Shown: in pieces, positions 1 to 56,183 of the stretch
Position numbering within the stretch: the first letter of the stretch is position 1
Layout of the letters: every line of letters starts with the position of its first letter
Origin: a virus
UHGV virus genome: UHGV-1558314
Length of the DNA stretch: 64,000 nucleotides
Direction: 5' to 3' (one strand)
Notes under the pieces: model-generated
Databases searched by the model: none
Told to the model about the DNA's origin: nothing
Seen by the model: only the letters and a program-made list of their open reading frames with translations
Translations under genes and position numbers: made by a program

Positions 1-643
1 TCCACTCCCATCTACCAAGGTCAAGATGCGCCTCGATGTATGTAAAGTGTTCAGACTTACGACATTTGCTGACTTTTGCATCATCATGTCGACCCATATT
101 GTCATACCAGCAAATTTCAAGTTTTTTGCCATCTTTTGCTGTGATGACTTTGAATGACTTAGACATCACATTGACAAGTGATGCACCAAGCCCATTAGTG
201 CCAGACAATGCGCCGCGGTCAGCAACAAAATTTGAACCAGACCTCAATGAGCCAAACACCATCTGCGGTATGTACTCATTGTACTCTGGATGCATCACTA
301 CAGGAATACCACCGTTGTCCCATACTGCAAGCTTGCCTGTTTTAGGATTGACTGTGACTGATATGCGATTGACTACTTCTTGTGCATGACTTTGAATGTT
401 ACGTTGACGCTCATCAAAACTGTTATTTATGCACTCATTAAACATTGTGTTCAAGCCAATTGACTGATATGTGTCATAGACACGTCGAATCGGTCTTTCA
501 GCATCTTCATATGGACGATACAACTCACATTCTTGTTCCGCAAGAAATTCAAGCGAACCTATGTACATGCCAGGCTTCAGTAGACAATGCTCGCGCGATG
601 AAAGTTTTTTGAATTTTTCTGTCAGATTGTTTATGTCAGACAT
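1..643 (-). CDS. Type II DNA topoisomerase ATPase subunit (GyrB / T4 gp39-like), 5' complete, 3' end beyond window
   Basis: Hand translation from ATG at 641-643 (minus) gives MSDINNLTEKFKKLSSREHCLLKPGMYIGS...; GHKL motifs seen: PGMYIGS, ECINNSFDE (N box), WDNGGIPV (G1), SGTNGLGASLVNVMS (G2); frame open to position 1; not in ORF track because it runs off the edge. Confidence 0.85.
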   Translation of the reverse strand, partial: MSDINNLTEKFKKLSSREHCLLKPGMYIGSLEFLAEQECELYRPYEDAERPIRRVYDTYQSIGLNTMFNECINNSFDERQRNIQSHAQEVVNRISVTVNPKTGKLAVWDNGGIPVVMHPEYNEYIPQMVFGSLRSGSNFVADRGALSGTNGLGASLVNVMSKSFKVITAKDGKKLEICWYDNMGRHDDAKVSKCRKSEHFTYIEAHLDLGRWEW

Positions 644-673
644 ATCTGTAAATTGAGATGTTTGTATATGTAT

Positions 674-702
674 ATTGTACAACAAGAATGCAAAACTTGC
701 AC
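674..702 (-). promoter_or_regulatory. Sigma70-like promoter (GTGCAA -35 / N17 / TACAAT -10 within GTTGTACAATAT)
   Basis: Plus-strand attgtacaac at 674-683 and ttgcac about 17 nt beyond; about 30 nt upstream of topoisomerase start. Confidence 0.5.
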
Positions 703-830
703 TGAAAATATACACATTTTCACATAACAGCAAGCATAATGCCAAGCACTACTGCAAGACATATCAAACCTATGCCAAGAACAATAAAGTCCAGTATAGA
801 ATACGTGTCATTAGACTGTTTCATAAGTAG

Positions 831-1757
831 TTATCGCAATTGATTCTTTGCAATGAATGCATTGATGTGCTCTGGCTTGCATACAGCACGATAGTAGAGT
901 TCAAATACTCGTTTAGCAGATGGCAATTTGCATGCAGTCAAATCTTTATCTTGCATTACAACACCAGTAATGTACTTAATGTCATGCAGCTCAATGTCTG
1001 AACAATGATGCTTTGCTGCAAACTCAAATGCTTGCTTAACAATTTTTGAGCATTCTGCTGTAGTACATTGCTGAAATGCTGCACAAAACTCTGCATAAGT
1101 GCTGCAGTCATTTTGCAGATGTAATGTAACAGATGATTTCAACATTGCTTCTGTTAAGTACTTTGGCAGCTTGCACAAAAATTTGACATATCTGCACTTG
1201 TCATCTGTCACATGCACATAGCCAGACACTGCAAGCATTCTAACATATCGAACAAGTTCTCTATGCTGTAGCACTGTGCGCAATATGACATTGTTTTGCA
1301 GCAAAATCTCATTGTCAACTGTGCAGTTAAGTGGCAATGTATTGTATGCTACTTTAAGATATGATAGCTTCGTTAATTGTTGTAAGCCATCATAGCCAAC
1401 AAAATCTGCTGGCACAATCAGTGGCAGACTGGCAACAACTTGTCGATTATTTCTGTCAACAATTGTGATTGCTGGGTTTTGCAAGTCAAGCACAGATTTT
1501 GAGCAAAACACTTGCATTGTGTCTTGAACTATGACAAATCCGAAGTTCTTGCACAATTGCATATTGCATGTACGAGCTTCTGCTGCGCTAATTGTTGCAA
1601 TGGGCAATCGTTTGTCGCTACACACATGCATTGGAGTTGGCCATATTGGGTCTGCTCTCAATACAAACACGTGTTTATTGCGGTCATATATTGCAGCAAA
1701 ATCTGCAAGATTGCTGATGTATCTTAAAGTAGTGTTACAAATCCCATTCATATGCAT
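831..1757 (-). CDS. Hypothetical Cys-rich protein (start uncertain; ORF track extends to 1973)
   Basis: Long minus ORF; first ATG compatible with upstream gene stop at 1735 is at 1755-1757 (MHMNGICN...); no recognised motif. Confidence 0.5.
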   Translation of the reverse strand: MHMNGICNTTLRYISNLADFAAIYDRNKHVFVLRADPIWPTPMHVCSDKRLPIATISAAEARTCNMQLCKNFGFVIVQDTMQVFCSKSVLDLQNPAITIVDRNNRQVVASLPLIVPADFVGYDGLQQLTKLSYLKVAYNTLPLNCTVDNEILLQNNVILRTVLQHRELVRYVRMLAVSGYVHVTDDKCRYVKFLCKLPKYLTEAMLKSSVTLHLQNDCSTYAEFCAAFQQCTTAECSKIVKQAFEFAAKHHCSDIELHDIKYITGVVMQDKDLTACKLPSAKRVFELYYRAVCKPEHINAFIAKNQLR

Positions 1758-2568
1758 TGTCTTGTACAGGTCCGCTAATTTGAACATCGAGGCCAAAGCG
1801 CTCAAGATAGCCATCGCAGAAATCAAGCCCATATTTGTTGCACTGTCTGAATGCATACTGGAACTTATCCAAGATTGCCCATAGATAAGGCTTTGAGCCT
1901 TCTGTGGGATATCCACCCTTTCTGTAATGCCACCAGCGCATGATATCATGAAACTCCCAATCTTCTGCTTCACATTCTACTGTAAAGCAGTCATGATATT
2001 TTGCCATCTGAGGCCAGAGTTCAGTATTGATGCGTTGACGAGTTGCTGCGCAGTCATCAAGCAACTCAAGAAACTCTTCAGGCGCATCAATCATGGGCAG
2101 ATTTGCTTCATTGACATCGATTTCTGCATCATTCGACAGCAGCTTTGTGATACGACCATTGTGCTCCGCGATGTCCTCGTAGACTTTTTTGCGTGTTGCA
2201 TCCATAGTCGCAGTCCACTTCGTGCCCTCTTCAATTTTCGGAAGTTGCTTGTCTTTGTTTTCGTTCCATTCAGGTGACTGGTCGAATATCGCCTTGCGAC
2301 GAATGTCTACAAGCTCCAAAAAGAAGGGCTTCGTCAACATAACAGCGTCACCCAGAATTTCTTTTGCTTGTTCAAAGCCCTCAATTTTGATTGAGTCTGC
2401 TGCAGCACAAATCTGCTCCTGAATTTTGTCTGCAGCTTCAAGAATGATGCGAGCTTTTGTTTTGATGTCATAAGATGCAGAATGTAAGCCAAGCTGCTCT
2501 GCGATTTCTACGGAATTTTGAAGACGAGCCTGCATGGCTTCTTCATTGTTCTTCTTTCCTCGTGCCAT
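1735..2568 (-). CDS. Hypothetical protein (277 aa)
   Basis: ORF track 1735..2568, ATG start MARGKKNNEE; acidic, Cys/His-containing C-terminal half; no recognised motif. Confidence 0.6.
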   Translation of the reverse strand: MARGKKNNEEAMQARLQNSVEIAEQLGLHSASYDIKTKARIILEAADKIQEQICAAADSIKIEGFEQAKEILGDAVMLTKPFFLELVDIRRKAIFDQSPEWNENKDKQLPKIEEGTKWTATMDATRKKVYEDIAEHNGRITKLLSNDAEIDVNEANLPMIDAPEEFLELLDDCAATRQRINTELWPQMAKYHDCFTVECEAEDWEFHDIMRWWHYRKGGYPTEGSKPYLWAILDKFQYAFRQCNKYGLDFCDGYLERFGLDVQISGPVQDNAYEWDL

Positions 2569-2843
2569 AATATTGTTGTTTTGCTATATGAGACTTGTTA
2601 TGACTTCAAGCACATGTTCTTTTGAATAGCACTTATCAAACTTATGCTTGAAGTCAATTAGTGACTCAAGCTTTGTTAAGTACCATTGATTGTCATACTT
2701 GAACCAGACTCGAGCATTTGCCGAACATATTGCATGCATTGCAGCATTCTGGTCTTCTTCAGGATTACGTCACTTAGACCCAAAGTAATATTGCAATGTA
2801 ATGCCACATTTATGAATTTCGTGCAATTTCATTTTTATGCTTA

Positions 2844-3098
2844 CTAAAATGTTAACTGTAATGACTTGATATTGACGCATTCAATTTTTAACATGACAAG
2901 CTTATCATGTGCAGCCATTGCGTCATATTTGATGTTTGCAATTTCAAGCTTCTGTGCAATTTTGTATGCAGAGACGCCATCAGTAGATATGCAGATACAG
3001 TTGCCAATGACTACATTTGCTGCATCTGTTATGTTAACTTTGCATGCATTATCATTGTTATCAATGACTTCTATGCATTTGATTGAGCTAAAGTCCAT
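2844..3098 (-). CDS. Hypothetical small protein (84 aa)
   Basis: ORF track only; no motif. Confidence 0.35.
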   Translation of the reverse strand: MDFSSIKCIEVIDNNDNACKVNITDAANVVIGNCICISTDGVSAYKIAQKLEIANIKYDAMAAHDKLVMLKIECVNIKSLQLTF

Positions 3099-3111
3099 AT
3101 TGCGAATGCTT

Positions 3112-3342
3112 TTATTGTGCTGATTTTGCTACATTTGCATATACCATGCCATGACAGCATGGGCATGTCCAATATGCTTCGGGTTCTTCATATGCAGGAC
3201 CTGGTATAGGATTGCCAAGCGTCATGTGTAAATCAGAAGCTTCGATTTCTATAATAGAATTGCACATATAGCAGACCTTTCTGCCAAGTCGTTTATCTAT
3301 TTGTTGCGTAGGTGCTTTGTAGTTGTTTTCAATGATTTTCAT
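3112..3342 (-). CDS. Small zinc-ribbon-like protein (76 aa)
   Basis: CYMC ... CPCCH four-Cys pattern; preceded by AT-rich late-type promoter and AACCTCTAC leader motif. Confidence 0.5.
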   Translation of the reverse strand: MKIIENNYKAPTQQIDKRLGRKVCYMCNSIIEIEASDLHMTLGNPIPGPAYEEPEAYWTCPCCHGMVYANVAKSAQ

Positions 3343-3420
3343 AGATGTAGAGGTTTAGTATATTTGATAGTATATTATTTATAGATATATAATACTACAC
3401 ACTTGCAGATTTTGCACTTA
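3343..3420 (-). promoter_or_regulatory. Late-type AT-rich promoter (TATAAATA-like) with AACCTCTAC leader element
   Basis: Gene-sense reads ...CTATAAATAATATACTATCAAATATACTAAACCTCTACATCT-ATG. Confidence 0.35.
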
Positions 3421-3574
3421 GTTGATAAATAATTTGTAAACATTTTCACAAACTTTTAACAGCTCTTTCGCTTATGAAAACTACTCAACTCTGGTTTGAA
3501 CGCCAGCAGTCAATCGCGGGTGGGCTCTTCGTGCTCCTATCACTACTATTGATGTCAGACTGTATGACTATGAT

Positions 3575-4225
3575 ATGCCGACAAAGGCATACACGACTGG
3601 GACTCATAGCATCGTAGTATACTATGATGGCGGAATTGTTGCAAATGGCAACACACAAAATGGGCGTTGGTACTCATCTCGACTTCAGCTTCAGCAATCA
3701 AAGGGCGCAGTTATCACTATAGCATTGCAAGATGCAAGCATTAGCGGCGTTGGTTGTGCTACTGTGTCATTTTACGCAGATGATGCAAAGATACAAAATG
3801 GCACTATGCATGTCAAACTATATTGTCGTACACAATATGAGTTTGTATGGCCACAAGCATACATGACTCAGTATGTGAATGATTTAATGTATGCTGTTTA
3901 TGTAGAGCCAAGTGACGTAAGATTTAATACAAGAGCTTTTGTCAATTGTTGCGGTTGTGGTCAAGCATTGACTGACAACTTTAATGGAGAACTCTGGGAT
4001 AATGGCTATTCAATTGAAGACACTGACATTATGCAAGCTGACGCAGACGAATGGTGGCCAATGATTAGTAATGCCTATGCAGAATTTCCATACACTGTCA
4101 TAGCATCAAACATTCCGGAAGAGTCTATGGCATCTGGACTTGCAGCTTTTCTGCAAAGTGCTGGTGTTGGCAGTGTTTTCTATGTACAAGCATTGCAGCT
4201 TGGTGAACTTGTAAGTTCATTTTAG
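3575..4225 (+). CDS. Hypothetical protein (216 aa), plus-strand island
   Basis: ORF track; followed by bidirectional terminator; short upstream ORF from ATG 3474 with hydrophobic segment overlaps its start in another frame. Confidence 0.5.
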   Translation: MPTKAYTTGTHSIVVYYDGGIVANGNTQNGRWYSSRLQLQQSKGAVITIALQDASISGVGCATVSFYADDAKIQNGTMHVKLYCRTQYEFVWPQAYMTQYVNDLMYAVYVEPSDVRFNTRAFVNCCGCGQALTDNFNGELWDNGYSIEDTDIMQADADEWWPMISNAYAEFPYTVIASNIPEESMASGLAAFLQSAGVGSVFYVQALQLGELVSSF

Positions 4226-4240
4226 ACTGTAGCATGATAC

Positions 4241-4282
4241 AAAAAGAAAGCCGAACTGAATTTCAGTTCGGCTTTCTTTTTT
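4241..4282. terminator. Bidirectional rho-independent terminator
   Basis: A5 - gaaagccgaactg / cagttcggctttc stem (13 bp) - T6 between convergent genes ending 4225 (+) and 4301 (-). Confidence 0.75.
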
Positions 4283-4300
4283 GCATACGCTTATGCTATG

Positions 4301-7300
4301 TTAGAACAGAGCAATGATGTTGTCAACAAACATAAAGCACTTTTGCAGCAATTCAGCTGTCGGCGTCATCTCATATGCTTTGCCATCATACATAAATCGC
4401 ACAGTGACAATGGGTGACACTTCGTCTTTGAATGCAAGCACAGGAACATCTACACCTGCAGTCAATTGCACTTCAACATCCTTGTCAGCTGCTACATCTT
4501 TAGCAATCACTGCAATATCTTGACAACGACCAGCAGCTACTGCATATCTAACGTTTGTCAATGTAGCAGACATGTCAGCAAGAGCTTGCATGATTTGCTG
4601 TTGAGTAAATTGCTCAACCGACTTCTTTGCAGCCTTGACAGCTTCGATATCTTGCGTATTTGCAAGAATCAATGCTACCACTGCAGGGTCAGAAGTAGTC
4701 CACCAACGACCATCAATTGCAAGCCACAGTCGATTGCCATTGACGTCAATTGCATATGCATATTGAGTGTTTGGCGCCAATGTGACTTTTCGAGTGTTCT
4801 TTAAGAACTCTGCTGCATCAGGTGCTGCAACAATGTTCTTGACAAATGACGGCAGCATTTCAGCTTCAAATGTTTGTGTAGCTTCAAAGACACCGCCACG
4901 TGCATCGTCATCAATTCTGCCTGCAAAGCGTTTGCAGATTTGAATGATTGTAGCCATGCCTACTGTTGGAACGACTTGACGTTTCATTGCAGGCATTTGC
5001 AGAGGCATTGTATCTTGCGCAATGTACAATGATGTCGCATCAACAGTGTCAAGTACTCGTGCAATGTCTGCAGTATCAACAATTACAAACCAGTCGCCAT
5101 CATGGCAGACAATGAGTTGCTTGCTGTCATTTGCATATGTCAGCAATACTGCAATGTCATTTTTGATTGAGATTGCAGGAATCCATGCTTGTTGCAGAGG
5201 TAAGTCAAGATTTGGTGTGCCGCATGGATAAAGCGCAGATGGCTGCATAATTGAGCGGCAATCAAAACCTATTGAACTTACAAGCTGCAGAACTTCGCCA
5301 CGAATGCAAGCATTACTTTGATTCTGTGTCATGTCATATGCAAGCCAACTGCAAATTGCTTTGATTGATGACACTGGAAATGCTACGCCAATTGTGCTGT
5401 ATGCAATCTTGCCGTCTGCTGACAATGACTCATCAACTGCAATGCCAGCATCATTGAACAATGACATATCAATTGAACAATGGAATTCGCCACCAGGCAT
5501 TGGACCTGCAGCAATGCCATAGCCATGACCAAGTGACAGCCATTCTTTCATTGCATCTGAATTGTATGACGAGAACTTGTACAGCACATATGACTTATGC
5601 GGGTCACTAACTGACTTGCGAATCTCCATCTTGGCGCCTGCTTTCTTTGCAATTGCTTTAATGTTATCGGCATGCTTTTTTGCCTCAGACTTGTCAAATT
5701 TGCCTTCATCAAGTTGAGCAATCTTGCCAAGCGCATAAGCAGTCCATGCAATTAACAATTGATTCAGTGCACCAACTTCTGACCACGACTTTTCTGCAAA
5801 CCATGAGCCAAGACCAGATTTGTCAAGGGTTTCTTTGCGTTCAGCTTTTGTTGTGCTGTCCCACCACTTGCCAGTCGCAGGCAATACAATGTCTTTGATT
5901 TGCTCCTTACGAAGCTCATTGACACCAATTTTGCCCTCATGAACATGCGCATTTGCATGATATGCTCTAAGAGCAGCCAACGCAGCATCATATGAGTCAT
6001 AGTCTTGCGGCCAGAATTCCCCATTCTTGCCAATGATGCCCCATACACCCTTTGACTTTTCTTGGATGACAGAGTCTTTGTCACCGGCAGCTTCATTGAC
6101 AAATGCCGTGTTAAGATATGCAATGACATGCTGAAGCTCTTTGTCGTCTGCAGACTCATTGACGTTCTTAGCGTAATCACCAAGAATTGATTCAACTTTG
6201 CCACGCAAATTGCTTGGCATATCATCAAGGTCAAGATTGCCGTACTTCGTAACTTCTGGTTGAGACAATCCAAGCAATTTCAACACCTTATCGCGGTACT
6301 TATTTGCAAGCTTCTTCCAAATCCAGCGGAATGTTACAGCGCCAATCAAGAATTTGATGAGGCCCTCATCAAGTACATGTTGTTCACGCAAATATGCTGT
6401 AATGCATGAACGTTGACCATCAGTCAAGTCAACCCACATTTTATCAAGCAATATTGAATCTGGGTTGCTTGCAATGCCAGCGCCGCTGCGGTTGTACACA
6501 TTCATTCTGTCAATTGCTGGTGTTGCGTCATTGTCCCACCAAGCTTGTGCATATGAACATCCAGCAGGATTTGAGATTGCTTCATTAATGTACATGACAT
6601 TGAAGATTTCGCAAAGACGCTTGCGACATTCAGGTGACATAACTTGCCATTGTGTTGCAATTTTGTCTTCTGACCACTGCAACAGCATGTCTGCAAATTC
6701 TTTACCTGCGCATTGCTCAACTGCACCATGTTTCGAACGCCAATAATTGTCAGGCTCAATTTGTGCAATTGCATGAACAAATGAAGTCAGATTGTATGAC
6801 GCAGATTCGCAAATGCAATGCTGTTCAATGTAGCTACGAACAGCAAGTGCAGTGTCTTCCGGCAAGTTGCTATATGGTGACTCATAGATGTTTGCTTGCT
6901 GATTGAGCATATGTGGAGCAACTTCTGCAATGATTTGTTTGCGAACATTCAATGGCCATGCATTCCATGAAGATTCTACAGATTCATCAAGATGCATGCC
7001 AATTGCATCCATAACTGCATCAGCATCTTTGCCCGACAGTTCGTCAAACAATTTGTCTACTACTGCATAATCATATCGCAAATTTGGCTGAGCCTTTGCA
7101 AGAGCGTCCATCATTGCTTTGCGTTCTTGTTTTGACGCATTATTCCATGTGCCAGCATACAATTCTGCTGTCGCGCTTTCACAGACAATATCTGCAGCAG
7201 CATATGCTTGCTTCATAATGTCCATGAAGATTGACTTCATTTTTGGATGCATCACATGATACTTTTCATTGTAGATGTCAAGTACGCCATAAACATCTTT

Positions 7301-7507
7301 CAATGGTCGAATGCTTTCTGATGAGCCGAATGATGGCTTCAAAATTGAATTGCATACACGTTCAACGGTGCCACGCATAAACTTGACATCACTTCGCTTG
7401 TCACTGATAGACATAAATGCATCAATGACAGACTTGATGTTGTCATCTGCAGCTTCATTGACAAAGCCTACTGGTCGACCGCCAAACTTGTTTGTTTGTG
7501 TTGTCAT
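4301..7507 (-). CDS. Large hypothetical protein (1068 aa) with FVNE motifs; possibly a protease-processed virion protein
   Basis: Long ORF, ATG start MTTQTNKF; contains RPVGFVNEAADD near N-terminus and TAFVNEAAGD internally; no catalytic motif recognised. Confidence 0.8.
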   Translation of the reverse strand: MTTQTNKFGGRPVGFVNEAADDNIKSVIDAFMSISDKRSDVKFMRGTVERVCNSILKPSFGSSESIRPLKDVYGVLDIYNEKYHVMHPKMKSIFMDIMKQAYAAADIVCESATAELYAGTWNNASKQERKAMMDALAKAQPNLRYDYAVVDKLFDELSGKDADAVMDAIGMHLDESVESSWNAWPLNVRKQIIAEVAPHMLNQQANIYESPYSNLPEDTALAVRSYIEQHCICESASYNLTSFVHAIAQIEPDNYWRSKHGAVEQCAGKEFADMLLQWSEDKIATQWQVMSPECRKRLCEIFNVMYINEAISNPAGCSYAQAWWDNDATPAIDRMNVYNRSGAGIASNPDSILLDKMWVDLTDGQRSCITAYLREQHVLDEGLIKFLIGAVTFRWIWKKLANKYRDKVLKLLGLSQPEVTKYGNLDLDDMPSNLRGKVESILGDYAKNVNESADDKELQHVIAYLNTAFVNEAAGDKDSVIQEKSKGVWGIIGKNGEFWPQDYDSYDAALAALRAYHANAHVHEGKIGVNELRKEQIKDIVLPATGKWWDSTTKAERKETLDKSGLGSWFAEKSWSEVGALNQLLIAWTAYALGKIAQLDEGKFDKSEAKKHADNIKAIAKKAGAKMEIRKSVSDPHKSYVLYKFSSYNSDAMKEWLSLGHGYGIAAGPMPGGEFHCSIDMSLFNDAGIAVDESLSADGKIAYSTIGVAFPVSSIKAICSWLAYDMTQNQSNACIRGEVLQLVSSIGFDCRSIMQPSALYPCGTPNLDLPLQQAWIPAISIKNDIAVLLTYANDSKQLIVCHDGDWFVIVDTADIARVLDTVDATSLYIAQDTMPLQMPAMKRQVVPTVGMATIIQICKRFAGRIDDDARGGVFEATQTFEAEMLPSFVKNIVAAPDAAEFLKNTRKVTLAPNTQYAYAIDVNGNRLWLAIDGRWWTTSDPAVVALILANTQDIEAVKAAKKSVEQFTQQQIMQALADMSATLTNVRYAVAAGRCQDIAVIAKDVAADKDVEVQLTAGVDVPVLAFKDEVSPIVTVRFMYDGKAYEMTPTAELLQKCFMFVDNIIALF

Positions 7508-7567
7508 ATATCAACTATTTTGATTGTCAATCAATTGATTTGTTTGTTATATGTATGCAACAATGCA

Positions 7568-7601
7568 AAATGAACCTGCAAATTTCTTCGCAGGTTCATT
7601 T
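7568..7601 (-). terminator. Hairpin terminator downstream of RNR gene
   Basis: aaatgaacctgc / gcaggttcattt 12-bp stem, 10-nt loop. Confidence 0.6.
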
Positions 7602-7619
7602 TGAGTGTGTCATGCAACA

Positions 7620-10600
7620 TCAATTGCATGCTGAATGTCCGCAGTTGGTGCATCGAACACAGCCGTCAAACTTGACCATGTCACCACCGCATTCAGGGCA
7701 CTTTGCATACATTTTTGAGCCATCTTGAATATGCAGTTTCAATGCACGACCAATTGCTTTGCAGAATGTTCCGACAGATGCAAAGCTTTTTGCAGTTTGG
7801 TCGACAATTTCGCCAAGGTCAATACCATTGCGAAGCATCGTTGAGTATAGTCGAGTAATTGTTTGTTGCTCATCTGAACCAAGACGTTCTGATATATTGT
7901 CATAGTGCTGCAAGAATGACAAATTGTCACCAAGCTTGTAGTGCTTCTTATCAGTCTTTGTGATTGTCGTTTGTTCAATGCCTTGCAACTTGTCGAATTC
8001 ATCTTTGTCAAGTTCAAATGCAAAGATTTCATAAGGTCGACCGTCATCACAGCCTACAAGAATACACCACTTGCGCTTATACACTGACACGCAATACACT
8101 GCAGCAGGCAATACTGGTTTTCGTTTTGAGCGATGACCAGATTGCAAGATGTGCGACTTGTCTTTTGACTGCTTGTCATCTTTTACGAGAACACCTGCAC
8201 GTGAGCCGTCTCGATAAATTGTGCAGCCCTTGCAGCCAGATTTCCATGCAGTCATATAAATTTCACGAACGAGTTCTTTTGTTGCAGAGTTTGGAATGTT
8301 GACCGTTACAGAAATTGACGAGTCAATGTATTTTTGCAATGCACCTTGCAGTTTCACCTTGCCAATCCAGTCAACATCTTCAGTAGTTGCCTTGTAGTAT
8401 GGTGATTGAACAAGCAACTCATCAATGACTGCTTGTGGAGCATTTGATAGCCAAGCTTTGATACGAGACATTTCTGCTTCTGACCATTCAATGCCAGTAT
8501 CTTTGACAAGAGTAAATTTGCCATCGCCAAGCTGCAATCGTTTACAAATCCACTGCATCAATGGGTAGTGAACTACAGCATATTCAATGAACTTGTCACC
8601 AGTAGTCTCATCAATGAAGTTGATGTCAGCTTCATTATCAACTGCAGTAGGCTTGCGACGACGTTTATGCAGCGGCATAAAGACAGGTTCAATGCCAGAC
8701 GTTGTCTGAGTCATCAAAGCTGTAGTGCCTGTTGGCGCAATTGTGGTCGTGTTAATGTTTCGACGGCCAAATTGCTGATAAGTTTTGATATGCTCATCAT
8801 CAATCGGTTCAGATAGCATACGCTGTACGAACTTTGACTGCACATCTGTGTCATAGTCGAATATTGCAAATGCGCCACGAATCTTTGCTAAGTCAATCGA
8901 TGCTTCATAAGTAGCCTTTACAAGCCATTGTTGCATAGTGACTGCGAAGTCAATTGACTCTTGTGAACCATAGCGCAAGCCAAGCATTGCCATTGCATCG
9001 CCAAGTGCAAGGAAGCCCATGCCATATCTACGAGTATTTGTCAATTTGTCATAGACTTTGTGCCACAAGTCAAGTTCAGTCTTTTTGATGTCAAAGTCTT
9101 CTTTGTCTGACTGTACCTTTGCAATGATTCGTTGCACTGCTTCAATTTCAAGCTGTACAAGGTCATCCATGATGACTGCACAATCATACGTGTCTTTATA
9201 GAATGTCTCAAAGTCAAATGACGCATCAGCAGTCCAAGGATTAAGCACGTATGCAGTCAAATTGCGATGTGACAAAATGCAGCTTGCATATGCTGCAAGA
9301 GGTTGTTCACCACAATTTAATGTATTGACTACTTGCTTGTCATTGACTGCAATAAAGAAATTGTGGAAGTCTTCTACTGTACCATTGTACACATCTGCTT
9401 TGTTCATGTGACGTGTTGCAACGACTTTGACAATTGTATCACCAGTAGTGTCAATGTCTGCATATTTGCTGCAGCCACCTAATGCTGCACAAGCTTCACA
9501 GCAATATGACTGTTCACGATTGTCATAAGAGATTTCGAATTCTTTACCACAGCACTCGCATTGTTTGATAACTGTATTTCGTTCTGTTTTTACAAGCTCA
9601 TCAGTCTTCAATGCAATTGATAGCTTATCTGCGCTTGGCATATCAATTGCCCACAACGTGTCATTTGTCGCAAGGTCAATTGCATACTTGAAATCACCAT
9701 TAGCAAGTCTGAACTCATGATTTGCTGTGCAATTGATGACATGACCATCATCAAGCACAATCTGAATGATTTGTGCATTGTGTGCAGTCAATCTTGGTCG
9801 ACGCATTGTACGCACAACAAGCTTGCCATTAGCGTCAAGACAATACACTGGAATGTCTTCGCCGTTATCAGCAAGCTCTTTGAATGTCTTCAAGCCTGAG
9901 CCATCAGCAACAAGCACTTTTGTGTCACCAGTGAAGCATGGATTTGTTGAGCGCTCTTCATACATTTTGCCGTATGCTTTCGAGTTCGACTCTTCCATAA
10001 TGCGGTCCCAAAAGAATACACCAGGTTCTGCAGATGCCCATACATTATCAACAATTTTGTCAAACAATGCTTTTGCATCTGATGTCTTATGCAGCTCTTG
10101 ACCATTAGAGCCACGCCAAACATGCTCAAACTGTTGTTCTGCAAGCACTGCACGCATAAATGCATCAGTAAGCTTGATGGAAATGTTTGCGCATGTGATT
10201 TTCGTCAAGTCCTTTTTTGCATCAATGAACTTATCTGCATCAGGATGCTCAATTGACAATGACAACATCAATGCGCCACGCCTGCCATTTTGTGCAACTT
10301 CTTTTGTCGATGTTGAAAAACGTTCCATAAATGACACTACACCAGACGTCGTAACAGCACTGTTATGCACTTCTACGCCTTCTGGACGAATATGTGACAA
10401 ATCATGGCCGACACCACCACGACGTTTCATCAACTGAACTTGTTCTTCATCTATTTTGAAGATGCCGCCATATGAGTCTGCATCATTGCCTATTACATAG
10501 CAATTTGACATTGATGTGTAACCGCCAAGACCAATACCAGCCATTGGAGAACCACCAAGTACAAATCGCTTAAATGGCTCAAGCAAATATGCAAGTCGCT

Positions 10601-10841
10601 CTTTTGACAATACACGTTTGCCTGTCTGTTCTTCAAATTGTGATTCTATACGGTCAAATTCATTGACCCAGCGTTCATGCATATCAGACAATGAGTGTTC
10701 ATACAGATTGTCTTTGTCATGATGCAAGTATTTTGACATGCATATGTCAGCAGCCATTGAGTCGCCTGTAAATTCATGTGTCAGTGTAGTGTGCACTTCA
10801 GCATATTCAGGCGACCCAATTTGAATAGGACGTTTTGTCAT
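7620..10841 (-). CDS. nrdJ: Class II (adenosylcobalamin-type) ribonucleotide reductase with mini-intein and C-terminal zinc ribbon
   Basis: Motif STNP-[insert]-CGEQPL reconstitutes the NPCGEQ active-site loop; C-terminal CPECGG...CVRCTNCGH; ORF-track start at 10901 is TTG inside the promoter, true ATG (MTKRPIQ) at 10839-10841. Confidence 0.9.
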   Translation of the reverse strand: MTKRPIQIGSPEYAEVHTTLTHEFTGDSMAADICMSKYLHHDKDNLYEHSLSDMHERWVNEFDRIESQFEEQTGKRVLSKERLAYLLEPFKRFVLGGSPMAGIGLGGYTSMSNCYVIGNDADSYGGIFKIDEEQVQLMKRRGGVGHDLSHIRPEGVEVHNSAVTTSGVVSFMERFSTSTKEVAQNGRRGALMLSLSIEHPDADKFIDAKKDLTKITCANISIKLTDAFMRAVLAEQQFEHVWRGSNGQELHKTSDAKALFDKIVDNVWASAEPGVFFWDRIMEESNSKAYGKMYEERSTNPCFTGDTKVLVADGSGLKTFKELADNGEDIPVYCLDANGKLVVRTMRRPRLTAHNAQIIQIVLDDGHVINCTANHEFRLANGDFKYAIDLATNDTLWAIDMPSADKLSIALKTDELVKTERNTVIKQCECCGKEFEISYDNREQSYCCEACAALGGCSKYADIDTTGDTIVKVVATRHMNKADVYNGTVEDFHNFFIAVNDKQVVNTLNCGEQPLAAYASCILSHRNLTAYVLNPWTADASFDFETFYKDTYDCAVIMDDLVQLEIEAVQRIIAKVQSDKEDFDIKKTELDLWHKVYDKLTNTRRYGMGFLALGDAMAMLGLRYGSQESIDFAVTMQQWLVKATYEASIDLAKIRGAFAIFDYDTDVQSKFVQRMLSEPIDDEHIKTYQQFGRRNINTTTIAPTGTTALMTQTTSGIEPVFMPLHKRRRKPTAVDNEADINFIDETTGDKFIEYAVVHYPLMQWICKRLQLGDGKFTLVKDTGIEWSEAEMSRIKAWLSNAPQAVIDELLVQSPYYKATTEDVDWIGKVKLQGALQKYIDSSISVTVNIPNSATKELVREIYMTAWKSGCKGCTIYRDGSRAGVLVKDDKQSKDKSHILQSGHRSKRKPVLPAAVYCVSVYKRKWCILVGCDDGRPYEIFAFELDKDEFDKLQGIEQTTITKTDKKHYKLGDNLSFLQHYDNISERLGSDEQQTITRLYSTMLRNGIDLGEIVDQTAKSFASVGTFCKAIGRALKLHIQDGSKMYAKCPECGGDMVKFDGCVRCTNCGHSACN
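9315..9938 (-). other. Mini-intein (about 208 aa) inserted at the RNR catalytic cysteine
   Basis: Starts CFTGDTKVL, block F-like VYNGTVEDFHNFFIAVN, ends ...VVNTLN followed by +1 Cys; Cys-rich insert KQCECCGKEFEISYDNREQSYCCEAC; no LAGLIDADG domain seen. Confidence 0.7.
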
Positions 10842-10882
10842 TGTAACAGTGCATTTAAGTGTTTTAACAGTTTTATGTATAA

Positions 10883-10911
10883 ATTGTACAACAATGGGCA
10901 AAATTTTGCAT
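10883..10911 (-). promoter_or_regulatory. Sigma70-like promoter (ATGCAA-N17-TACAAT) for RNR
   Basis: Plus attgtacaac at 10883-10892, ttgcat at 10906-10911. Confidence 0.5.
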
Positions 10912-10958
10912 CAACTCAAAACAGCCAAGCAATGAATTGCTTGGCTGTTTTGAGTTGA
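10911..10958. terminator. 48-bp perfect palindrome (22-bp stem, 4-nt loop); terminator or protein-binding site
   Basis: tcaactcaaaacagccaagcaa tgaa ttgcttggctgttttgagttga. Confidence 0.65.
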
Positions 10959-10969
10959 TGCGCACCTGC

Positions 10970-11128
10970 TATTTTACTTGAACAGCTTCTGCAAGAATGA
11001 AACTGCAATCTACTACATCATCTTCTTCGCATTTAGAATTGAAGTACTGCTGAGCATCCTTGGCATTGTCAAATGCTTCATACCATCGATGGTCAATGTA
11101 GTCTACTAATACAAGATAGTGTTTCATA
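10970..11128 (-). CDS. Hypothetical small protein (52 aa)
   Basis: Hand-translated MKHYLVLVDYIDHRWYEAFDNAKDAQQYFNSKCEEDDVVDAVFILAEAVQVK; below ORF-track size cutoff. Confidence 0.3.
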
Positions 11129-11149
11129 GTTAGTTGCAGTTAGTTGTAG

Positions 11150-11605
11150 TTATTGTGCTTTGCCAGTATAATAAGTGATTGCGTCAATGTAAGGCTGTTC
11201 TTTAGACATTAGCCAATCAATGCCAAATACTGTATCTTGGCGAAATCTTCGTTGTGCAATCATTTGAACTTCTATAGGCATATCTACGTCCTTGCCAAAT
11301 CTTATTGTATTTGCAAGTTCTGTGATTGCATATCTGAGAATTTTATCAGTGCTCATTGTTAATGTACTTTCCGGCAATTGCCAGTAGCGTTCTTGGAATG
11401 CTCGATTTGCTGAGTAAGTCCAAAGTTCAAGTCTTGCATTTCTGCAATCATATGAAACAATCAGACTTAATCCTTTTGTCCAGCAATGTGCTATCTTAAT
11501 GATAGGGTTGTTGTCATTGATTGATGACATTGCTTGCAGTTTTTCGAAATCTTTAACATATCTGTTATCATTCGAAAGCTGTTCCATTATTTCACCGTAA
11601 GTCAT
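11150..11605 (-). CDS. Hypothetical protein (151 aa), late-promoter class
   Basis: ORF track; AACCTCTACTACA immediately 5' of ATG. Confidence 0.6.
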   Translation of the reverse strand: MTYGEIMEQLSNDNRYVKDFEKLQAMSSINDNNPIIKIAHCWTKGLSLIVSYDCRNARLELWTYSANRAFQERYWQLPESTLTMSTDKILRYAITELANTIRFGKDVDMPIEVQMIAQRRFRQDTVFGIDWLMSKEQPYIDAITYYTGKAQ

Positions 11606-11780
11606 TGTAGTAGAGGTTAAAATATATTAATATATAATAATTATACTACAAAGTTGCCAGATTTGCACCAGAATGTATAACAAGTTCACACAAAATTACA
11701 AACAAAAACAAGCAGACTGCAATTACAGCCTGCTTGCACCAAAACAGAAAAAGATGATAACTTAACCCAAAAACCTAACT

Positions 11781-13322
11781 TTATCTACTTACAGAATCTC
11801 GCATTGAAATCATAACTTGCTCTTGAATTGACATAGGTATGATGTTGAAGTCTGACACTTCAGCAACGTCATCAACATCAAGTGCTCTTAATGTGTCTGT
11901 GTTACAGCAAGTCACTATGATTGACTTGCGAACATACTCATCAGCAACATTCCACAACAGCTGACAAATTGCTCGATTGTCAAGACAAATTTCATTGACT
12001 GTGCGGACAAGGCTGTACCATGCAGTCACATTATTGCGCTTCAGAGTTTCAAGCATATATCGTGCAAGCCCAAAACCTGCTACATATGACCCAGTCTGCT
12101 TATTGAATGACTCAATTGCGTATGCATCAAACAATGCTTCTGTCATCAAGGGCATTGCAGCGGTCATTCGGTAGTATCGATAGTCAACACATACAATCAA
12201 CCAGTTAACATATGAATTGACTGCGTATGCATGCGCTTTGAACCCAAGGTCATTCAAGATTTTGCAGATGGCATTGTAAGTCGATTCATCAGCATTGCCA
12301 AAGTTTGCAAGCAGCTTAACTTTAAGAATGTCTTCACCAATTGCATTTCTTGTAGCAGTGAATGATGGTATGCATGCAAAGCTTCTTTTGCAGATGTCTG
12401 TGATAAGTTGCTGTGCATCATTCACAAGCTGTCTTGCAGCCTCAGCACGCTTTTCAGACTGTGCTTGATATTTTGGCCGCAACTGTGATGAGCCAGTTGC
12501 AGCACCATATCGCATAGCAGCTTGCCAGTCCTTGAGATTATTTTGCAATTCACGAACATAGTCTGCAGCGACCATTGCAGATGGAGTTCTTTGCTGTTCG
12601 ATGAGTTTGTTGATGTTTGCAAGCACATCTGATGCAAACATATCTTTTGGTTTGACTTTCGCAATTTCAGCAAGCACTGCAGGTACACGAGCAATGCCAC
12701 GAGGCTCATTTGAAACTACTACTGCATAATCTACAAGTGCCTCACATACAAGCTGTTCATCGACAAAGTACTCAGGATTCTGCACAGCGTCTTCAACAAC
12801 TGCAATCAATGTTGCTATACGATTGCCGTCAGGCTTATTGCCAAACAGCTCAATGTACAACATATCTGCTTGTTGGTCTGTCATTGAACCTGCAATGTCA
12901 ATTGACTTTGCCAGCTTATTAAGCAGTTCAGCTTGCTTACTCGACAATCTGACTTTGTATGATGACTCTACAGCTTCTTTGACTGCTTTGAGTTTTCTAT
13001 CAATGTCAAGACTACTTTCATTGACATTCATACCAACAATGCCAGCAGCGTCAGTGTTAAATTGCTCAACAGTTTCTGCTGCAGTTATTGGCGATGACAC
13101 AATAGATTGTTTTGCATTTGCTGCAAGCTGATTGAGTCGAGTGACTGCTTCAGAATCTTGCGCAACTGCAAGATATCTTACGCACAGCTCATCAATCTGT
13201 GAAAGATAACTTTGGGTCATGTTTATCGAAAAATTGTTGTTTCTTGACGAATAGCTGTTGGATGCAATTTGCAGAAACACTTCGACATTTCTAAGTTCCG
13301 ATGATGACAACAATGTTTCCAT
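11781..13322 (-). CDS. Hypothetical protein (513 aa) with one VNE site; possible virion component
   Basis: ORF track; GMNVNESSLD motif. Confidence 0.7.
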   Translation of the reverse strand: METLLSSSELRNVEVFLQIASNSYSSRNNNFSINMTQSYLSQIDELCVRYLAVAQDSEAVTRLNQLAANAKQSIVSSPITAAETVEQFNTDAAGIVGMNVNESSLDIDRKLKAVKEAVESSYKVRLSSKQAELLNKLAKSIDIAGSMTDQQADMLYIELFGNKPDGNRIATLIAVVEDAVQNPEYFVDEQLVCEALVDYAVVVSNEPRGIARVPAVLAEIAKVKPKDMFASDVLANINKLIEQQRTPSAMVAADYVRELQNNLKDWQAAMRYGAATGSSQLRPKYQAQSEKRAEAARQLVNDAQQLITDICKRSFACIPSFTATRNAIGEDILKVKLLANFGNADESTYNAICKILNDLGFKAHAYAVNSYVNWLIVCVDYRYYRMTAAMPLMTEALFDAYAIESFNKQTGSYVAGFGLARYMLETLKRNNVTAWYSLVRTVNEICLDNRAICQLLWNVADEYVRKSIIVTCCNTDTLRALDVDDVAEVSDFNIIPMSIQEQVMISMRDSVSR

Positions 13323-23474: not shown

Positions 23475-24494
23475 CTATTGCTTATGCCAGCCATATGATG
23501 CCTGACCAGCATCATACACTTCTACAAAACCATGGTCGTACATAAAATCTTCATTACGAGTGCCCTTGCCCCCATTAGTACCAAGAATACGGTCTGCACC
23601 ATGCATAAGCAGCATATTATTTGTGATATGTTGCTTTGTCAGCATATTGAACCAATGTTTGCTATATGACAAGCCAAGACCATCAAAGCCCAGCTTTGTG
23701 TACACGCCACCATCAAACTTGCTCAAATCACAATACGACAACACAGATTCAGGGTCATATGTCTTGATAAAGTGCTTGAATATGCGTTCGGCGCCACCTA
23801 CGACTTTTGTTGCTGCACAAAGACGCAGTAGTTCATACTGATATCGCTTATTGTATCGTGGACGACCAAATGTCATAAGCTGATGTATGACATAGCCGCC
23901 AAGCAATTCAAGTGGATGGCCTTCAATCAACGCAAGATTGATAAAATTGCCTGAGCACTTGCCTTGCAAATGATGTTCAATCAAAAATTGATTTGCAGTA
24001 TACTTGTCAATTTCAACAACTTTAAGCTTGCGAGCATATACAATCTTTGATTTGTCTACGATTTGATGCTTGATGTGATTGATAACTTTCTTGGCGTCAT
24101 CCCAATCCCACACATGAATGCAATGAAAGCCTGCAGCTTTTGCAATGTCTGTTTTCTTTGCATGAATATCACAAGGCAAATGCGAATCTTTTGCAGCATG
24201 CATAAATAGATGCTCAAATGAATGCGTGCTATTATGTGAAAATGTGGGATTGATGTTGATGACGATGTTGTCATGTCTAAAATCGAAGACTTCATCACCA
24301 ATAACAAAGTTGCGCTCAAAATCTATACCGACATGTTTGAGTAATACTTGATGCCACACATCTTTATAGGCTGATTCAAGATTGCTTAGCTCATCACAGT
24401 TTGCAATATTTTTGTAACGTTGAATAGCAGCATCAAAGTCAAGATTGACTTCAGCGTAGTCTGCATTTTTATCGTAGTGAAATTTTGAGCTCAT
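23475..24494 (-). CDS. Homing-endonuclease-like protein, family paralog 1 (Vsr/DUF559-like nuclease motif)
   Basis: IVININPTFSHNSTHSF ... GFHCIHVWDWDD and C-terminal VEVYDAGQ shared with paralogs; ATG at 24492-24494. Confidence 0.75.
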   Translation of the reverse strand: MSSKFHYDKNADYAEVNLDFDAAIQRYKNIANCDELSNLESAYKDVWHQVLLKHVGIDFERNFVIGDEVFDFRHDNIVININPTFSHNSTHSFEHLFMHAAKDSHLPCDIHAKKTDIAKAAGFHCIHVWDWDDAKKVINHIKHQIVDKSKIVYARKLKVVEIDKYTANQFLIEHHLQGKCSGNFINLALIEGHPLELLGGYVIHQLMTFGRPRYNKRYQYELLRLCAATKVVGGAERIFKHFIKTYDPESVLSYCDLSKFDGGVYTKLGFDGLGLSYSKHWFNMLTKQHITNNMLLMHGADRILGTNGGKGTRNEDFMYDHGFVEVYDAGQASYGWHKQ

Positions 24495-24515
24495 GTGTAT
24501 AATTTGTATGAGATT

Positions 24516-24544
24516 ATTGTACAACATGCAAATGCATGTTGCAT
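24516..24544 (-). promoter_or_regulatory. Sigma70-like promoter (ATGCAA-N17-TACAAT)
   Basis: Plus attgtacaac at 24516-24525, ttgcat at 24539-24544. Confidence 0.5.
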
Positions 24545-24598
24545 TTGATGCAAAGTACTGCGTACACAACATAAAGTACAAGTTTGCTTTTGACAGAC

Positions 24599-25621
24599 TT
24601 ACTTTGTATTGCTACGCGTCATTGTTAAATGACCGCAATCATACACATCAACTTCTGTTTTGCCAAGCATGCATGTATGACAATTTATTTTGAAATCTAC
24701 TGCAGTGTAGTCAGGATAGTTTAGCGGAGATTCTTTTGACAAATCAATTTCAATTGTGTCAGTAGTTTTAAGTTGTTCAGTGCCTGCAATGATATCTGCA
24801 ATGAGATTGATAACATCTTCTTGTGAATCCCAGTCAAACACAGTTATGCAACGATAGCCTGCATCAAGCGCAAGTTTTGTTTTGTTGTAATGGTATTGCG
24901 CATCAAGTGGCTCATTTTTGTCAGACAATTTTGTTGCATATCGAAACCCAAGCGTGCTGTTATGCGATACGGTAGGATTGATTTCTACAAGCAATTTATG
25001 TGTGCCATCAATATCATATGACAAATCATATGAATAACGTTGAATTCTAACTGCGTCAAGCTGCATGTCAATGTGTAAATGACGCAATATTATTGCATGC
25101 CAATGCTTGTTGATGCCCGATATTATATTTGCAGCTTCCATGCATTTTGGATGCATTACAAAATACGGCACGCCAAAGCGTTCTTGTATTGTTTTGTATG
25201 CTTTTGCATTAGAATCTTTACCATAAATGCTGCCATAACGCTTAAGCTTTGTAGCAATCAACTTGTCTATGTCACCCATAGCATTGCCAAAGCGCTCAAT
25301 CTTATGCTGTTTAATGGCATCTTTGTCGCCAAACATATGACCATATCGAGACATCTTTGTTGCTTTGACTGCATTGATGTTGCAACCTGCACCATATCGA
25401 GCATGCATAGTTTGCATGCGTTTAGCAATGTGCTCTTGTGATTGCTTAATTTGTTCGGTGCCAAATTTGCGCAAATTATTGATACGCTTAGTAACATCTT
25501 GTTTAATGACTGAATGCGTGGTTGTTCGCTTGCCAAGTCTTACACATTCTGTAGTTTTGAGCAATGTATCTCGTTCAAACTCAATTTGTGCAATTCGTGC
25601 AACAATTTCTTTAGATGTCAT
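24599..25621 (-). CDS. Homing-endonuclease-like protein, paralog 2 (tandem K/R-Y/F-G repeats + Vsr-like nuclease motif)
   Basis: Repeats ...MSRYGHMFGD...IERFGNAMGD...LKRYGSIYGKD...; LLVEINPTVSHNSTLGF ... GYRCITVFDWD ... VDVYDCGH; ATG at 25619-25621. Confidence 0.75.
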   Translation of the reverse strand: MTSKEIVARIAQIEFERDTLLKTTECVRLGKRTTTHSVIKQDVTKRINNLRKFGTEQIKQSQEHIAKRMQTMHARYGAGCNINAVKATKMSRYGHMFGDKDAIKQHKIERFGNAMGDIDKLIATKLKRYGSIYGKDSNAKAYKTIQERFGVPYFVMHPKCMEAANIISGINKHWHAIILRHLHIDMQLDAVRIQRYSYDLSYDIDGTHKLLVEINPTVSHNSTLGFRYATKLSDKNEPLDAQYHYNKTKLALDAGYRCITVFDWDSQEDVINLIADIIAGTEQLKTTDTIEIDLSKESPLNYPDYTAVDFKINCHTCMLGKTEVDVYDCGHLTMTRSNTK

Positions 25622-25640
25622 TTTTAATAGCATATTGATA

Positions 25641-25670
25641 ATTATACAACATACAAATGAGTTTTGCATT
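25641..25670 (-). promoter_or_regulatory. Sigma70-like promoter (-10 TATAAT variant)
   Basis: Plus attatacaac at 25641-25650, ttgcat at 25665-25670. Confidence 0.4.
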
Positions 25671-25700
25671 TTTGATGTAGCAATTGCTTGCACAGTTTGC

Positions 25701-25737
25701 AAAAAAGAACCGCTTGCAATCTAATTGCAAGCGGTTC
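25701..25737 (-). terminator. Rho-independent terminator (14-bp stem + U tract on minus strand)
   Basis: aaaaaa gaaccgcttgcaat cta attgcaagcggttc. Confidence 0.7.
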
Positions 25738-51225: not shown

Positions 51226-51315
51226 AAGATATTGTGAATTTGGTTGTTTATTCTTAACAAAATATGTACATACAGATGCAACAGATGATATGTCAGATAC
51301 ACAAAGCTGCATAAA

Positions 51316-51355
51316 ATGACCAGACTTGCAAATAAATTTAAGCAAGTCTGGTCAT
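51316..51355 (-). terminator. Hairpin terminator downstream of polymerase C-part
   Basis: atgaccagacttgc aaataaatttaa gcaagtctggtcat. Confidence 0.6.
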
Positions 51356-51369
51356 CAGTTTTGATTGCA

Positions 51370-52662: not shown

Positions 52663-52683
52663 AAGGTATCTTATTTAATTATT

Positions 52684-52712
52684 ATTGTACAACACACATT
52701 GCAATTTTGCAA
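52684..52712 (-). promoter_or_regulatory. Sigma70-like promoter (TTGCAA-N17-TACAAT)
   Basis: Plus attgtacaac at 52684-52693, ttgcaa at 52707-52712. Confidence 0.55.
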
Positions 52713-52726
52713 TATGTGTGTTAAAC

Positions 52727-52762
52727 AAAAATGCAGCAGCAGAACATCTGCTGCTGCATCGG
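52727..52762 (-). terminator. Rho-independent terminator
   Basis: aaacaaaa atgcagcagcag aacat ctgctgctgcat. Confidence 0.6.
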
Positions 52763-52801
52763 CAGGTATCTTCACATGTATTTGAGTTGATTACGATGTG
52801 A

Positions 52802-53629: not shown

Positions 53630-53697
53630 CTTGTATCTATGTTGTTGATTTTCAATTTAATATATTGAACAACATTTGTTGACATTTTGCAACATTG

Positions 53698-54072: not shown

Positions 54073-54073
54073 A

Positions 54074-54565: not shown

Positions 54566-54588
54566 ATTAAGTATGTGTTTGTATGTTG

Positions 54589-54939: not shown

Positions 54940-54959
54940 TTATTGTTATTATATGTTGA

Positions 54960-56175: not shown

Positions 56176-56183
56176 GTGTTGTT

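What the first reader, a model, noticed from the sequence alone, without database searches (positions are those of the whole stretch)
2569..2843. 275-nt stretch without any ORF of 60 codons or more
Gene density elsewhere is high. This interval contains only 20-25-codon ORF remnants on the minus strand and could hold a decayed gene, a small RNA or a regulatory region.
Basis: seen in the sequence. Interest (0 to 1): 0.25.

Follow-up and report, generated by a model that had tools for sequence, protein, structure and literature searches.

The report
Small phage gene broken by stop codon
The apparently empty 275-base gap is a small, conserved phage gene of unknown function that in this strain carries a single premature stop codon (TGG to TGA), an ordinary recent gene knockout, not a hidden RNA or regulatory element.

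Summary
The gap is real: no ORF of 60 codons or more overlaps 2569-2843. It is not empty. On the minus strand one frame runs from ATG 2832 to TAG 2586-2584 (82 codons), with one in-frame TGA at 2772-2770 (codon 21). It sits 11 nt after the upstream gene and 15 nt before the downstream one. Close relatives (93-96% DNA identity) have the same gene uninterrupted: TGG (Trp) in two contigs and TTG (Leu) in a third. Two 41%-identical homologs of 80-83 aa exist, one in the same position. dN/dS is 0.04-0.12 for the divergent pairs, so the frame encodes a protein. On the window's own lineage the ORF has only two changes: one synonymous, plus TGG>TGA. The stop is therefore young. Two assemblies made with different assemblers carry it. 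Recoding is not supported: TGA ends 25 of 66 genes, relatives lack the stop, there is no SECIS-like fold, and no UCA-anticodon tRNA was found in the 46% of the genome examined. No Rfam hit or promoter/terminator signal supports an RNA or regulatory reading. The protein is a rare ORFan with a confident predicted alpha/beta fold but no functional relative. Verdict: an ordinary strain-specific nonsense allele. Low interest.

The parts
2584..2832 (-). Interrupted gene: 82 sense-codon positions plus the TAG stop (2586-2584). It encodes MKLHEIHKCGITLQYYFGSK*RNPEEDQNAAMHAICSANARVWFKYDNQWYLTKLESLIDFKHKFDKCYSKEHVLEVITSLI.
   Evidence: Translation. Uninterrupted orthologs at 93-98% protein identity. dN/dS 0.04-0.12 for the divergent pairs.
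2770..2772 (-). In-frame opal codon TGA at codon 21, followed by C. Orthologs have TGG (Trp) twice and TTG (Leu) once. Distant homologs have Asp or Asn.
2773..2832 (-). The first 20 codons (MKLHEIHKCGITLQYYFGSK). This is the only product expected if TGA terminates. In the homolog's model it corresponds to the first beta-hairpin.
2587..2769 (-). 61 codons downstream of the TGA, still free of further stops or frameshifts and identical in protein to the inferred ancestor.
2737..2739 (-). First in-frame start codon after the TGA (Met32). This is the only candidate for re-initiation and would give a 51-aa fragment lacking the conserved N-terminal third.
   Evidence: ORF 2584-2739, 51 aa, ATG; conserved columns.
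2833..2843 (-). 11-nt spacer between the stop of the upstream 84-aa gene (TAG 2846-2844) and ATG 2832. Relatives have a 2-nt indel here, which breaks the frame of the alternative upstream ATG at 2880 and so supports 2832 as the start.
2569..2583 (-). 15-nt spacer between the TAG stop of the small gene and the ATG (2568) of the downstream 277-aa gene.
1735..2568 (-). Downstream neighbour, 277 aa, no family assignment. It is 79% identical in locus L009, where it again directly follows a homolog of the small gene.
2844..3098 (-). Upstream neighbour, 84 aa, no family assignment. It is not conserved in L009.

Best explanation
The interval holds a genuine protein-coding gene for an 82-residue accessory protein of unknown function, specific to this phage clade. 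It lies in a tightly packed minus-strand gene string next to the topoisomerase and ribonucleotide reductase genes of a roughly 175-kb PAU/Chryseobacterium-phage-like myovirus, probably with a Bacteroidota host. In this strain codon 21, ancestrally TGG (Trp), has changed by one G>A transition to TGA. The genome uses TGA as an ordinary terminator, so translation should stop after 20 residues. The conserved remainder is then not made, or is made only at trace level. This would be a very recent loss-of-function allele of a dispensable, fast-evolving gene. Shown: the single frame, the stop, the intact orthologs, purifying selection in the family, the youth of the change, and ordinary TGA use as a stop. 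Inferred: that termination is efficient, that the gene is dispensable, and what the protein does. My guess for function is a small early protein that binds a host or phage partner, from its size, location and rapid divergence only.
For: One frame with a single TGA. Orthologs are uninterrupted: L001 TGG, L005 TGG, L002/P0001 TTG. Distant full-length homologs P0002 (83 aa) and P0003 (80 aa) exist, and P0002 sits directly upstream of a 79%-identical copy of the 277-aa neighbour. dN/dS is 0.04-0.12 for all pairs but the closest (0.45, from 3 differences), and 17 of 24 differences to L002 are at third positions. Only two window-specific changes occur in the ORF: a synonymous C9 TGC>TGT and W21 TGG>TGA. 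The TGA is present in ENA contig ERZ27260853:k119_42272 and in an independently assembled Logan contig of run ERR1136818, both 100% identical here. TGA terminates 25 of 66 tiled genes, 10 of them as TGA-C, and structural genes are intact under the standard code. The AlphaFold model of the homolog is confident (pLDDT 84.8) and places position 21 in the loop after the first beta-hairpin, so a stop there removes about three quarters of the fold.
Against: No expression or read-level data exist, so termination efficiency and allele frequency are unknown. The absence of any further decay downstream of the stop fits a very young pseudogene but also fits continued selection on a read-through product. 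The two assemblies carrying TGA may derive from the same sample. The function of the protein is unassigned: no Pfam, PHROG, PADLOC or PDB relative.
Confidence: 0.75

Rival explanations
1. Leaky opal: the TGA is partly read through by near-cognate tRNA-Trp. This would restore the ancestral Trp, so the allele would be a low-expression hypomorph and not a null. Natural UGA read-through by tRNA-Trp, as in the Qbeta A1 protein, is established knowledge cited from memory and was not tested here.
For: TGG>TGA is the one nonsense change whose usual misreading restores the original residue. No additional damage lies downstream of the stop. Position 21 tolerates W, L, D and N in the family and lies in a loop, so any inserted residue would probably do.
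Against: The stop is absent from every relative, so read-through is not a conserved feature. The TGA-C context is shared by 10 of 25 ordinary TGA terminators in the window, so it does not mark a special site. There is no stable structure downstream (z = -0.48). The lack of further decay is explained just as well by the youth of the mutation.
Confidence: 0.12
2. Sequencing or consensus artefact, or a minority variant: the phage population actually carries TGG and the A was called wrongly or comes from a subpopulation.
For: It is a single-base difference from the closest relatives. The assemblies that share it are 100% identical over at least 16 kb and may derive from the same reads.
Against: Two different assemblers (a MEGAHIT-style ENA contig and Logan) give the same base. 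The site is not in a homopolymer or repeat. A 175-kb contig implies good coverage (inference).
Confidence: 0.08
3. Genetic-code change or dedicated decoding: TGA is read as Trp (code 4), Gly (code 25) or selenocysteine, or is suppressed by a phage-encoded opal suppressor tRNA, as in stop-codon-recoded gut phages.
For: The capsid is distantly related to Bacteroidota jumbo phages and Lak megaphages, a group in which recoding occurs (recoding from memory). A tRNA cluster with a tRNA-Sec-shaped gene lies about 5 kb outside the window.
Against: TGA ends 25 of 66 genes, and capsid, portal, protease, polymerase and RNR genes are all open under the standard code. No other gene in the window is interrupted in this way. 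Homologs have W, L, D or N at the site, never Cys. There is no SECIS-like hairpin. The Sec-shaped tRNA has anticodon UGA, which reads the Ser codon UCA and not the stop. The six other tRNAs are Gln, Pro, Leu, Glu, Thr and Gly.
Confidence: 0.02
4. The interval is a non-coding functional element, either a small RNA or a regulatory region, as the first reader also proposed.
For: No ORF of 60 codons or more.
Against: The substitution pattern is that of a protein-coding frame. Intact protein homologs exist. Rfam gives nothing above chance. There is no promoter or terminator enrichment, and spacers to both neighbours are only 11 and 15 nt.
Confidence: 0.02

Closest known systems
Unnamed ORFan family of 79-83-aa myovirus proteins (P0001, P0002, P0003; BFVD model A0A8S5QF73 from Myoviridae sp. 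ctn8H20)
   Same: Full-length sequence homology at 41-93% identity. Shared invariant residues I6, K8, I11, Y15, G18, N23-P24, V42-W43-F44, Y46, N48, W50-Y51, S57, F61-K62, K67, Y69 and E72. Position directly upstream of the 277-aa gene in L001, L005 and L009. Predicted fold matched at TM 0.74-0.78.
   Different: The window's copy has a premature TGA at codon 21. No family member has any annotation or known function.
Nonsense (opal) pseudogenes and strain-specific loss of accessory genes in variable regions of large phage genomes
   Same: A single-base change in a small, fast-evolving gene, with close relatives intact and core genes around it unaffected.
   Different: The event is so recent that nothing but the stop itself marks the gene as decayed.
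Programmed UGA read-through (Qbeta A1 type) and stop-codon-recoded phages (TGA>Trp)
   Same: An in-frame TGA at a position that is Trp in relatives.
   Different: The stop is not conserved, TGA is a normal terminator across the genome, and neither a suppressor tRNA nor a stimulatory structure was found.

Membership tests
80-83-aa phage ORFan family (P0001/P0002/P0003) | Full-length sequence similarity | tested here: met
   P0001 E 4e-46 at 93% identity. P0002 and P0003 at 41% identity over residues 1-78. The profile search recovers all three at E below 1e-33.
80-83-aa phage ORFan family (P0001/P0002/P0003) | Uninterrupted reading frame of about 80 codons | tested here: not met
   TGA at codon 21 in the window. 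All other members are intact.
80-83-aa phage ORFan family (P0001/P0002/P0003) | Conserved position directly upstream of the 277-aa gene | tested here: met
   Seen in the window, L001, L005 and L009. Not seen in L010, where the downstream gene is unrelated.
Stop-codon-recoded phage (TGA read as an amino acid) | TGA frequent inside genes and avoided as a terminator | tested here: not met
   TGA ends 25 of 66 genes. Long ORFs cover about 94% of the minus strand under table 11. No other TGA-interrupted gene was found.
Stop-codon-recoded phage (TGA read as an amino acid) | Phage-encoded suppressor tRNA with anticodon UCA | tested here: inconclusive
   None found in the window or in 16 kb of flanks, which include the tRNA cluster. 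Only about 80 of 175 kb of the genome could be examined.
Bacterial selenoprotein gene | SECIS hairpin immediately downstream of the UGA | tested here: not met
   The fold of 2790-2700 is no better than shuffles, z = -0.48.
Bacterial selenoprotein gene | Cys (or Sec) at the aligned position in homologs | tested here: not met
   Homologs have W, W, L, D and N.
Programmed read-through gene (Qbeta A1 type) | The stop codon is conserved among relatives, with coding constraint continuing beyond it | tested here: not met
   Constraint continues beyond the site, but the stop occurs only in this strain.
Any Rfam RNA family | Score at or above the family gathering threshold | tested here: not met
   The only match is mir-651 at 23.3 bits against 106, E 0.074.

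The most novel reading that the evidence does not exclude
The opal codon is not a dead end but a selected attenuator. Low-level read-through by tRNA-Trp would restore the ancestral residue and supply a trace dose of a small early protein that is costly at full dose in this strain's host. That would make it a natural example of expression tuning by a sense-to-leaky-stop switch in a Bacteroidota phage.
Probability: 0.04. Interest if true: 0.35.

Novelty: new member of a known kind. Interest (0 to 1): 0.1.

Why it matters
It matters little beyond annotation. The interval should be annotated as a nonsense-interrupted copy of a small conserved phage gene, not as intergenic or RNA-coding sequence. 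The case also shows that an ORF-free gap in a dense phage genome should first be checked for a single in-frame stop against close relatives. The small protein family itself is rare, phage-restricted and unannotated, with a confidently predicted fold that has no solved relative. The natural knockout suggests it is dispensable, at least in some hosts.

Tried and rejected
- **DNA search of GenBank phages** with the locus (blastn) and with the protein (tblastn) gave no match.
- **IMG/VR, JGI metagenome and GTDB genome scans** gave only one relative each or none.
- **PHROGs, Pfam, PADLOC and PDB sequence searches** of the small protein found nothing above threshold. The Pfam hits SEO_C, DUF7274 and TRAF6_Z2 are all below cutoff.
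- **Single-sequence AlphaFold of P0001** was useless, pLDDT 45. P0001 also carries a foreign 28-aa tail.
- **The selenocysteine idea**, raised by the tRNA-Sec-like hit, was rejected once the anticodon was read as UGA (Ser).
- **A literature search for the sample accessions** found nothing.
- **Walking the rest of the genome for tRNAs** was judged not worth the remaining collection scans.

Full report
**Observation.**
The ORF listing shows no ORF of 60 aa or more overlapping 2569-2843. The interval is bounded exactly by two minus-strand genes: 1735-2568 (277 aa) and 2844-3098 (84 aa). That strand has a 51-aa ATG ORF (2584-2739), a 43-aa ORF and a 36-aa ORF. Reading the minus strand from ATG 2832 gives one continuous frame down to TAG 2586-2584, 82 codons long, broken only by TGA at 2772-2770 at codon 21. 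The frame starts 11 nt after the stop of the upstream gene and ends 15 nt before the start of the downstream gene. This is the same tight packing seen across the rest of the window. The gap is one of about nine gaps of 120 nt or more in the window.

**Is it a gene?**
A search of 5.8 billion proteins returned one close homolog, P0001, at 93% identity and covering the whole frame without interruption. Three related contigs were retrieved:
- L001 = IMGVR_UViG_3300045988_152288, 174.6 kb, about 96% DNA identity.
- L005 = OGNF01013694.1, about 95%.
- L002 = an ENA contig, about 93.5%.

All three carry the gene in the same place and uninterrupted. Codon 21 is TGG (Trp) in L001 and L005 and TTG (Leu) in L002.

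Nei-Gojobori counts give dN/dS of 0.04-0.12 for every pair except the closest one, window versus L001. That pair gives 0.45 but rests on only three differences. Differences are concentrated at third codon positions, for example 17 of 24 between the window and L002. An exhaustive HMMER search of 1.8 billion representatives added two full-length homologs at 41% identity, P0002 (83 aa) and P0003 (80 aa). P0002 lies directly upstream of a 79%-identical copy of the 277-aa neighbour. The interval therefore holds a real, selected protein-coding gene in this phage clade.

A 2-nt indel just upstream of ATG 2832 in the relatives breaks the frame of the alternative start at 2880, which fixes 2832 as the start.

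**What happened in this genome.**
Parsimony makes TGG ancestral for the close clade. TGA is one G>A transition from TGG and two steps from TTG. Across the ORF the window's lineage has only two private changes: a synonymous TGC>TGT at codon 9 and TGG>TGA at codon 21. The rest of the encoded protein equals the inferred ancestor. The stop is therefore very recent.

It is not an artefact of one assembly. ENA contig ERZ27260853:k119_42272 (175,395 bp) matches the window at 100% over the 11.8 kb containing the finding. Elsewhere that contig shows 1 mismatch in 13.5 kb and a net 96-nt length difference from the window. A separately assembled Logan contig of run ERR1136818 matches at 100% over 1,165 bp. 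Both carry the TGA. Whether they represent independent samples could not be established.

**Recoding, suppression and selenocysteine.**
The genome uses TGA as a normal terminator:
- 17 of 45 long minus-strand ORFs and 25 of 66 tiled genes end in TGA. In-frame extensions after these stops are usually short.
- The major capsid, portal, prohead protease, DNA polymerase and RNR genes are open under table 11.
- No other gene in the window is interrupted in this way.
- TGA-C, the context here, is also the context of 10 of 25 genuine TGA stops.
- The 90 nt around and downstream of the stop fold no better than shuffles, z = -0.48.
- Homologs never have Cys at the site.

The window has no tRNA. Fetching 10-kb flanks of the source contig revealed a tRNA cluster about 5 kb beyond the window start, carrying Gln, Pro, Leu(CAA), Glu, Thr and Gly. 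A covariance scan found one more gene there that scored best against the tRNA-Sec model at 41.8 bits, below its gathering score of 47. Its anticodon loop is CU-UGA-AA. The anticodon UGA reads the Ser codon UCA, not the stop. Its 8-bp acceptor stem, 4-bp T stem, long D stem and G discriminator base match the (8/4) tRNA-Ser already described in phage tRNA clusters (PMC5389517). No opal suppressor was found. Only about 46% of the genome was examined.

**RNA or regulatory alternatives.**
Rfam at a permissive threshold gave only a chance-level miRNA hit, 23 bits against a gathering score of 106. Promoter-like and terminator-like sites in 1500-4400 are at shuffle frequency, 11 against 9.4 and 2 against 2.1, and none is placed meaningfully in the interval. 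The coding-type substitution pattern argues directly against these readings.

**What the protein is.**

The small protein diverges much faster than its neighbour, 41% against 79% identity in L009. The region is a DNA-metabolism and early-type module, with topoisomerase subunits, RNR and small ORFs. The natural knockout implies dispensability. From these points I infer, without direct evidence, a small accessory protein that acts by binding a host or phage partner. A stop at codon 21 leaves only the first hairpin. The first in-frame restart codon is Met32, which would omit the conserved N-terminal third.

**Genome context.**
The capsid is 33-37% identical to those of Chryseobacterium phages MA9V-1/2, Sphingomonas phage PAU and Tenacibaculum jumbo phages. 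Only 1 of 66 genes has a Shine-Dalgarno core upstream. Together these suggest a Bacteroidota host (inference).

**Verdict.**
This is a conserved small ORFan gene with a young, strain-specific opal nonsense mutation. The most likely outcome is loss of function (confidence 0.75). A leaky hypomorph (0.12) and a base-calling or minority-variant artefact (0.08) are the realistic rivals. The finding is ordinary and of low interest.

Noticed in passing
L011 16375-16457 (+), on ENA contig k119_42272 about 5.4 kb beyond window position 1: An 83-nt tRNA missed by ARAGORN that scores best against Rfam tRNA-Sec (41.8 bits, gathering score 47). It has an 8-bp acceptor stem, a 4-bp T stem, a 6-7-bp D stem with a 4-nt loop, a long variable arm and a G discriminator, but its anticodon is UGA (Ser). 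It fits the (8/4) tRNA-Ser class already reported from phage tRNA clusters (PMC5389517). No exact copy of its D/anticodon arm exists in IMG/VR.
   Followed up: partly
L011 15842-17028 (outside the window): A tRNA cluster: Gln(TTG), Pro(TGG), Leu(CAA), Glu(TTC), Thr(TGT) and Gly(TCC). A weak permuted-tmRNA-like hit lies at L011 17078-17228 (24.9 bits, E 0.018, below threshold), probably noise.
   Followed up: partly
window 51370-52662 (-) and 56184-57725 (-), with 52802-56175 between them: The family-B DNA polymerase is split into two ORFs. The N-terminal exonuclease part is at 56184-57725 and the C-terminal polymerase part at 51370-52662. About 3.5 kb separates them and carries a homing-endonuclease-like gene (54976-56175), dUTPase (54074-54565), MazG (53698-54072) and others.
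   Followed up: no
window 7620-10901 (-): The ribonucleotide reductase large subunit contains an intein-splicing-domain match at residues 338-517. The match is below the Pfam cutoff, at 29.7 bits against 35.8.
   Followed up: no
window 3343-4240, + strand gene 3575-4225: The only plus-strand gene in this neighbourhood (216 aa) has a weak CorA-like copper-binding match, E 3e-5, just below cutoff. It sits in a variable spot: the segment does not align in L001 and is replaced by about 130-160 nt in L005 and L002. The best sigma-70-like match in the region, TTGATA-18-TATAAT at 3364-3393 (+), lies in the divergent gap upstream of it. It looks like an inserted accessory gene.
   Followed up: partly
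L002 about 1708-1909; P0001 residues 82-110: The related contig L002 switches abruptly to GC-rich sequence after codon 81 of the small gene. The resulting 28-aa tail (RRVMEQAEWQLLPRATELVCRAITEKEN) matches, at 80-87% identity, the C-terminus of several otherwise unrelated proteins that look like bacterial PurN (identification from memory). It is probably a chimeric assembly join, so the 110-aa length of P0001 is not real.
   Followed up: partly
window 23475-24581 (-) and 24599-25702 (-): Two adjacent ORFs of 368 and 367 aa just downstream of the major capsid gene share a domain of about 160 aa (33% identity, E 1e-19). The domain sits at different positions in each (residues 62-204 against 187-342), suggesting tandem paralogs with domain shuffling.
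   Followed up: partly
window 33612-37562 (-): A 1316-aa protein whose only recognisable part is a T4 gp21-like prohead protease domain (Peptidase_S77) at residues 52-173, scoring 26.9 bits against a cutoff of 27. This is far longer than T4 gp21, which is about 212 aa (length from memory).
   Followed up: no
window 831-1973 / 1735-2568 (-): The ORF downstream of the 277-aa gene can start at GTG 1973 (380 aa), which would overlap it by 239 nt. Gene callers in the public records use ATG 1787 (318 aa), a 53-nt overlap.
   Followed up: no
whole window versus ENA contig k119_42272: The window is 100% identical to the ENA contig over window 1-11787. It has 1 mismatch over 50533-64000 and a net 96-nt length difference somewhere in 11788-50532. 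It is therefore either a slightly different assembly of the same phage or a near-identical strain.
   Followed up: partly
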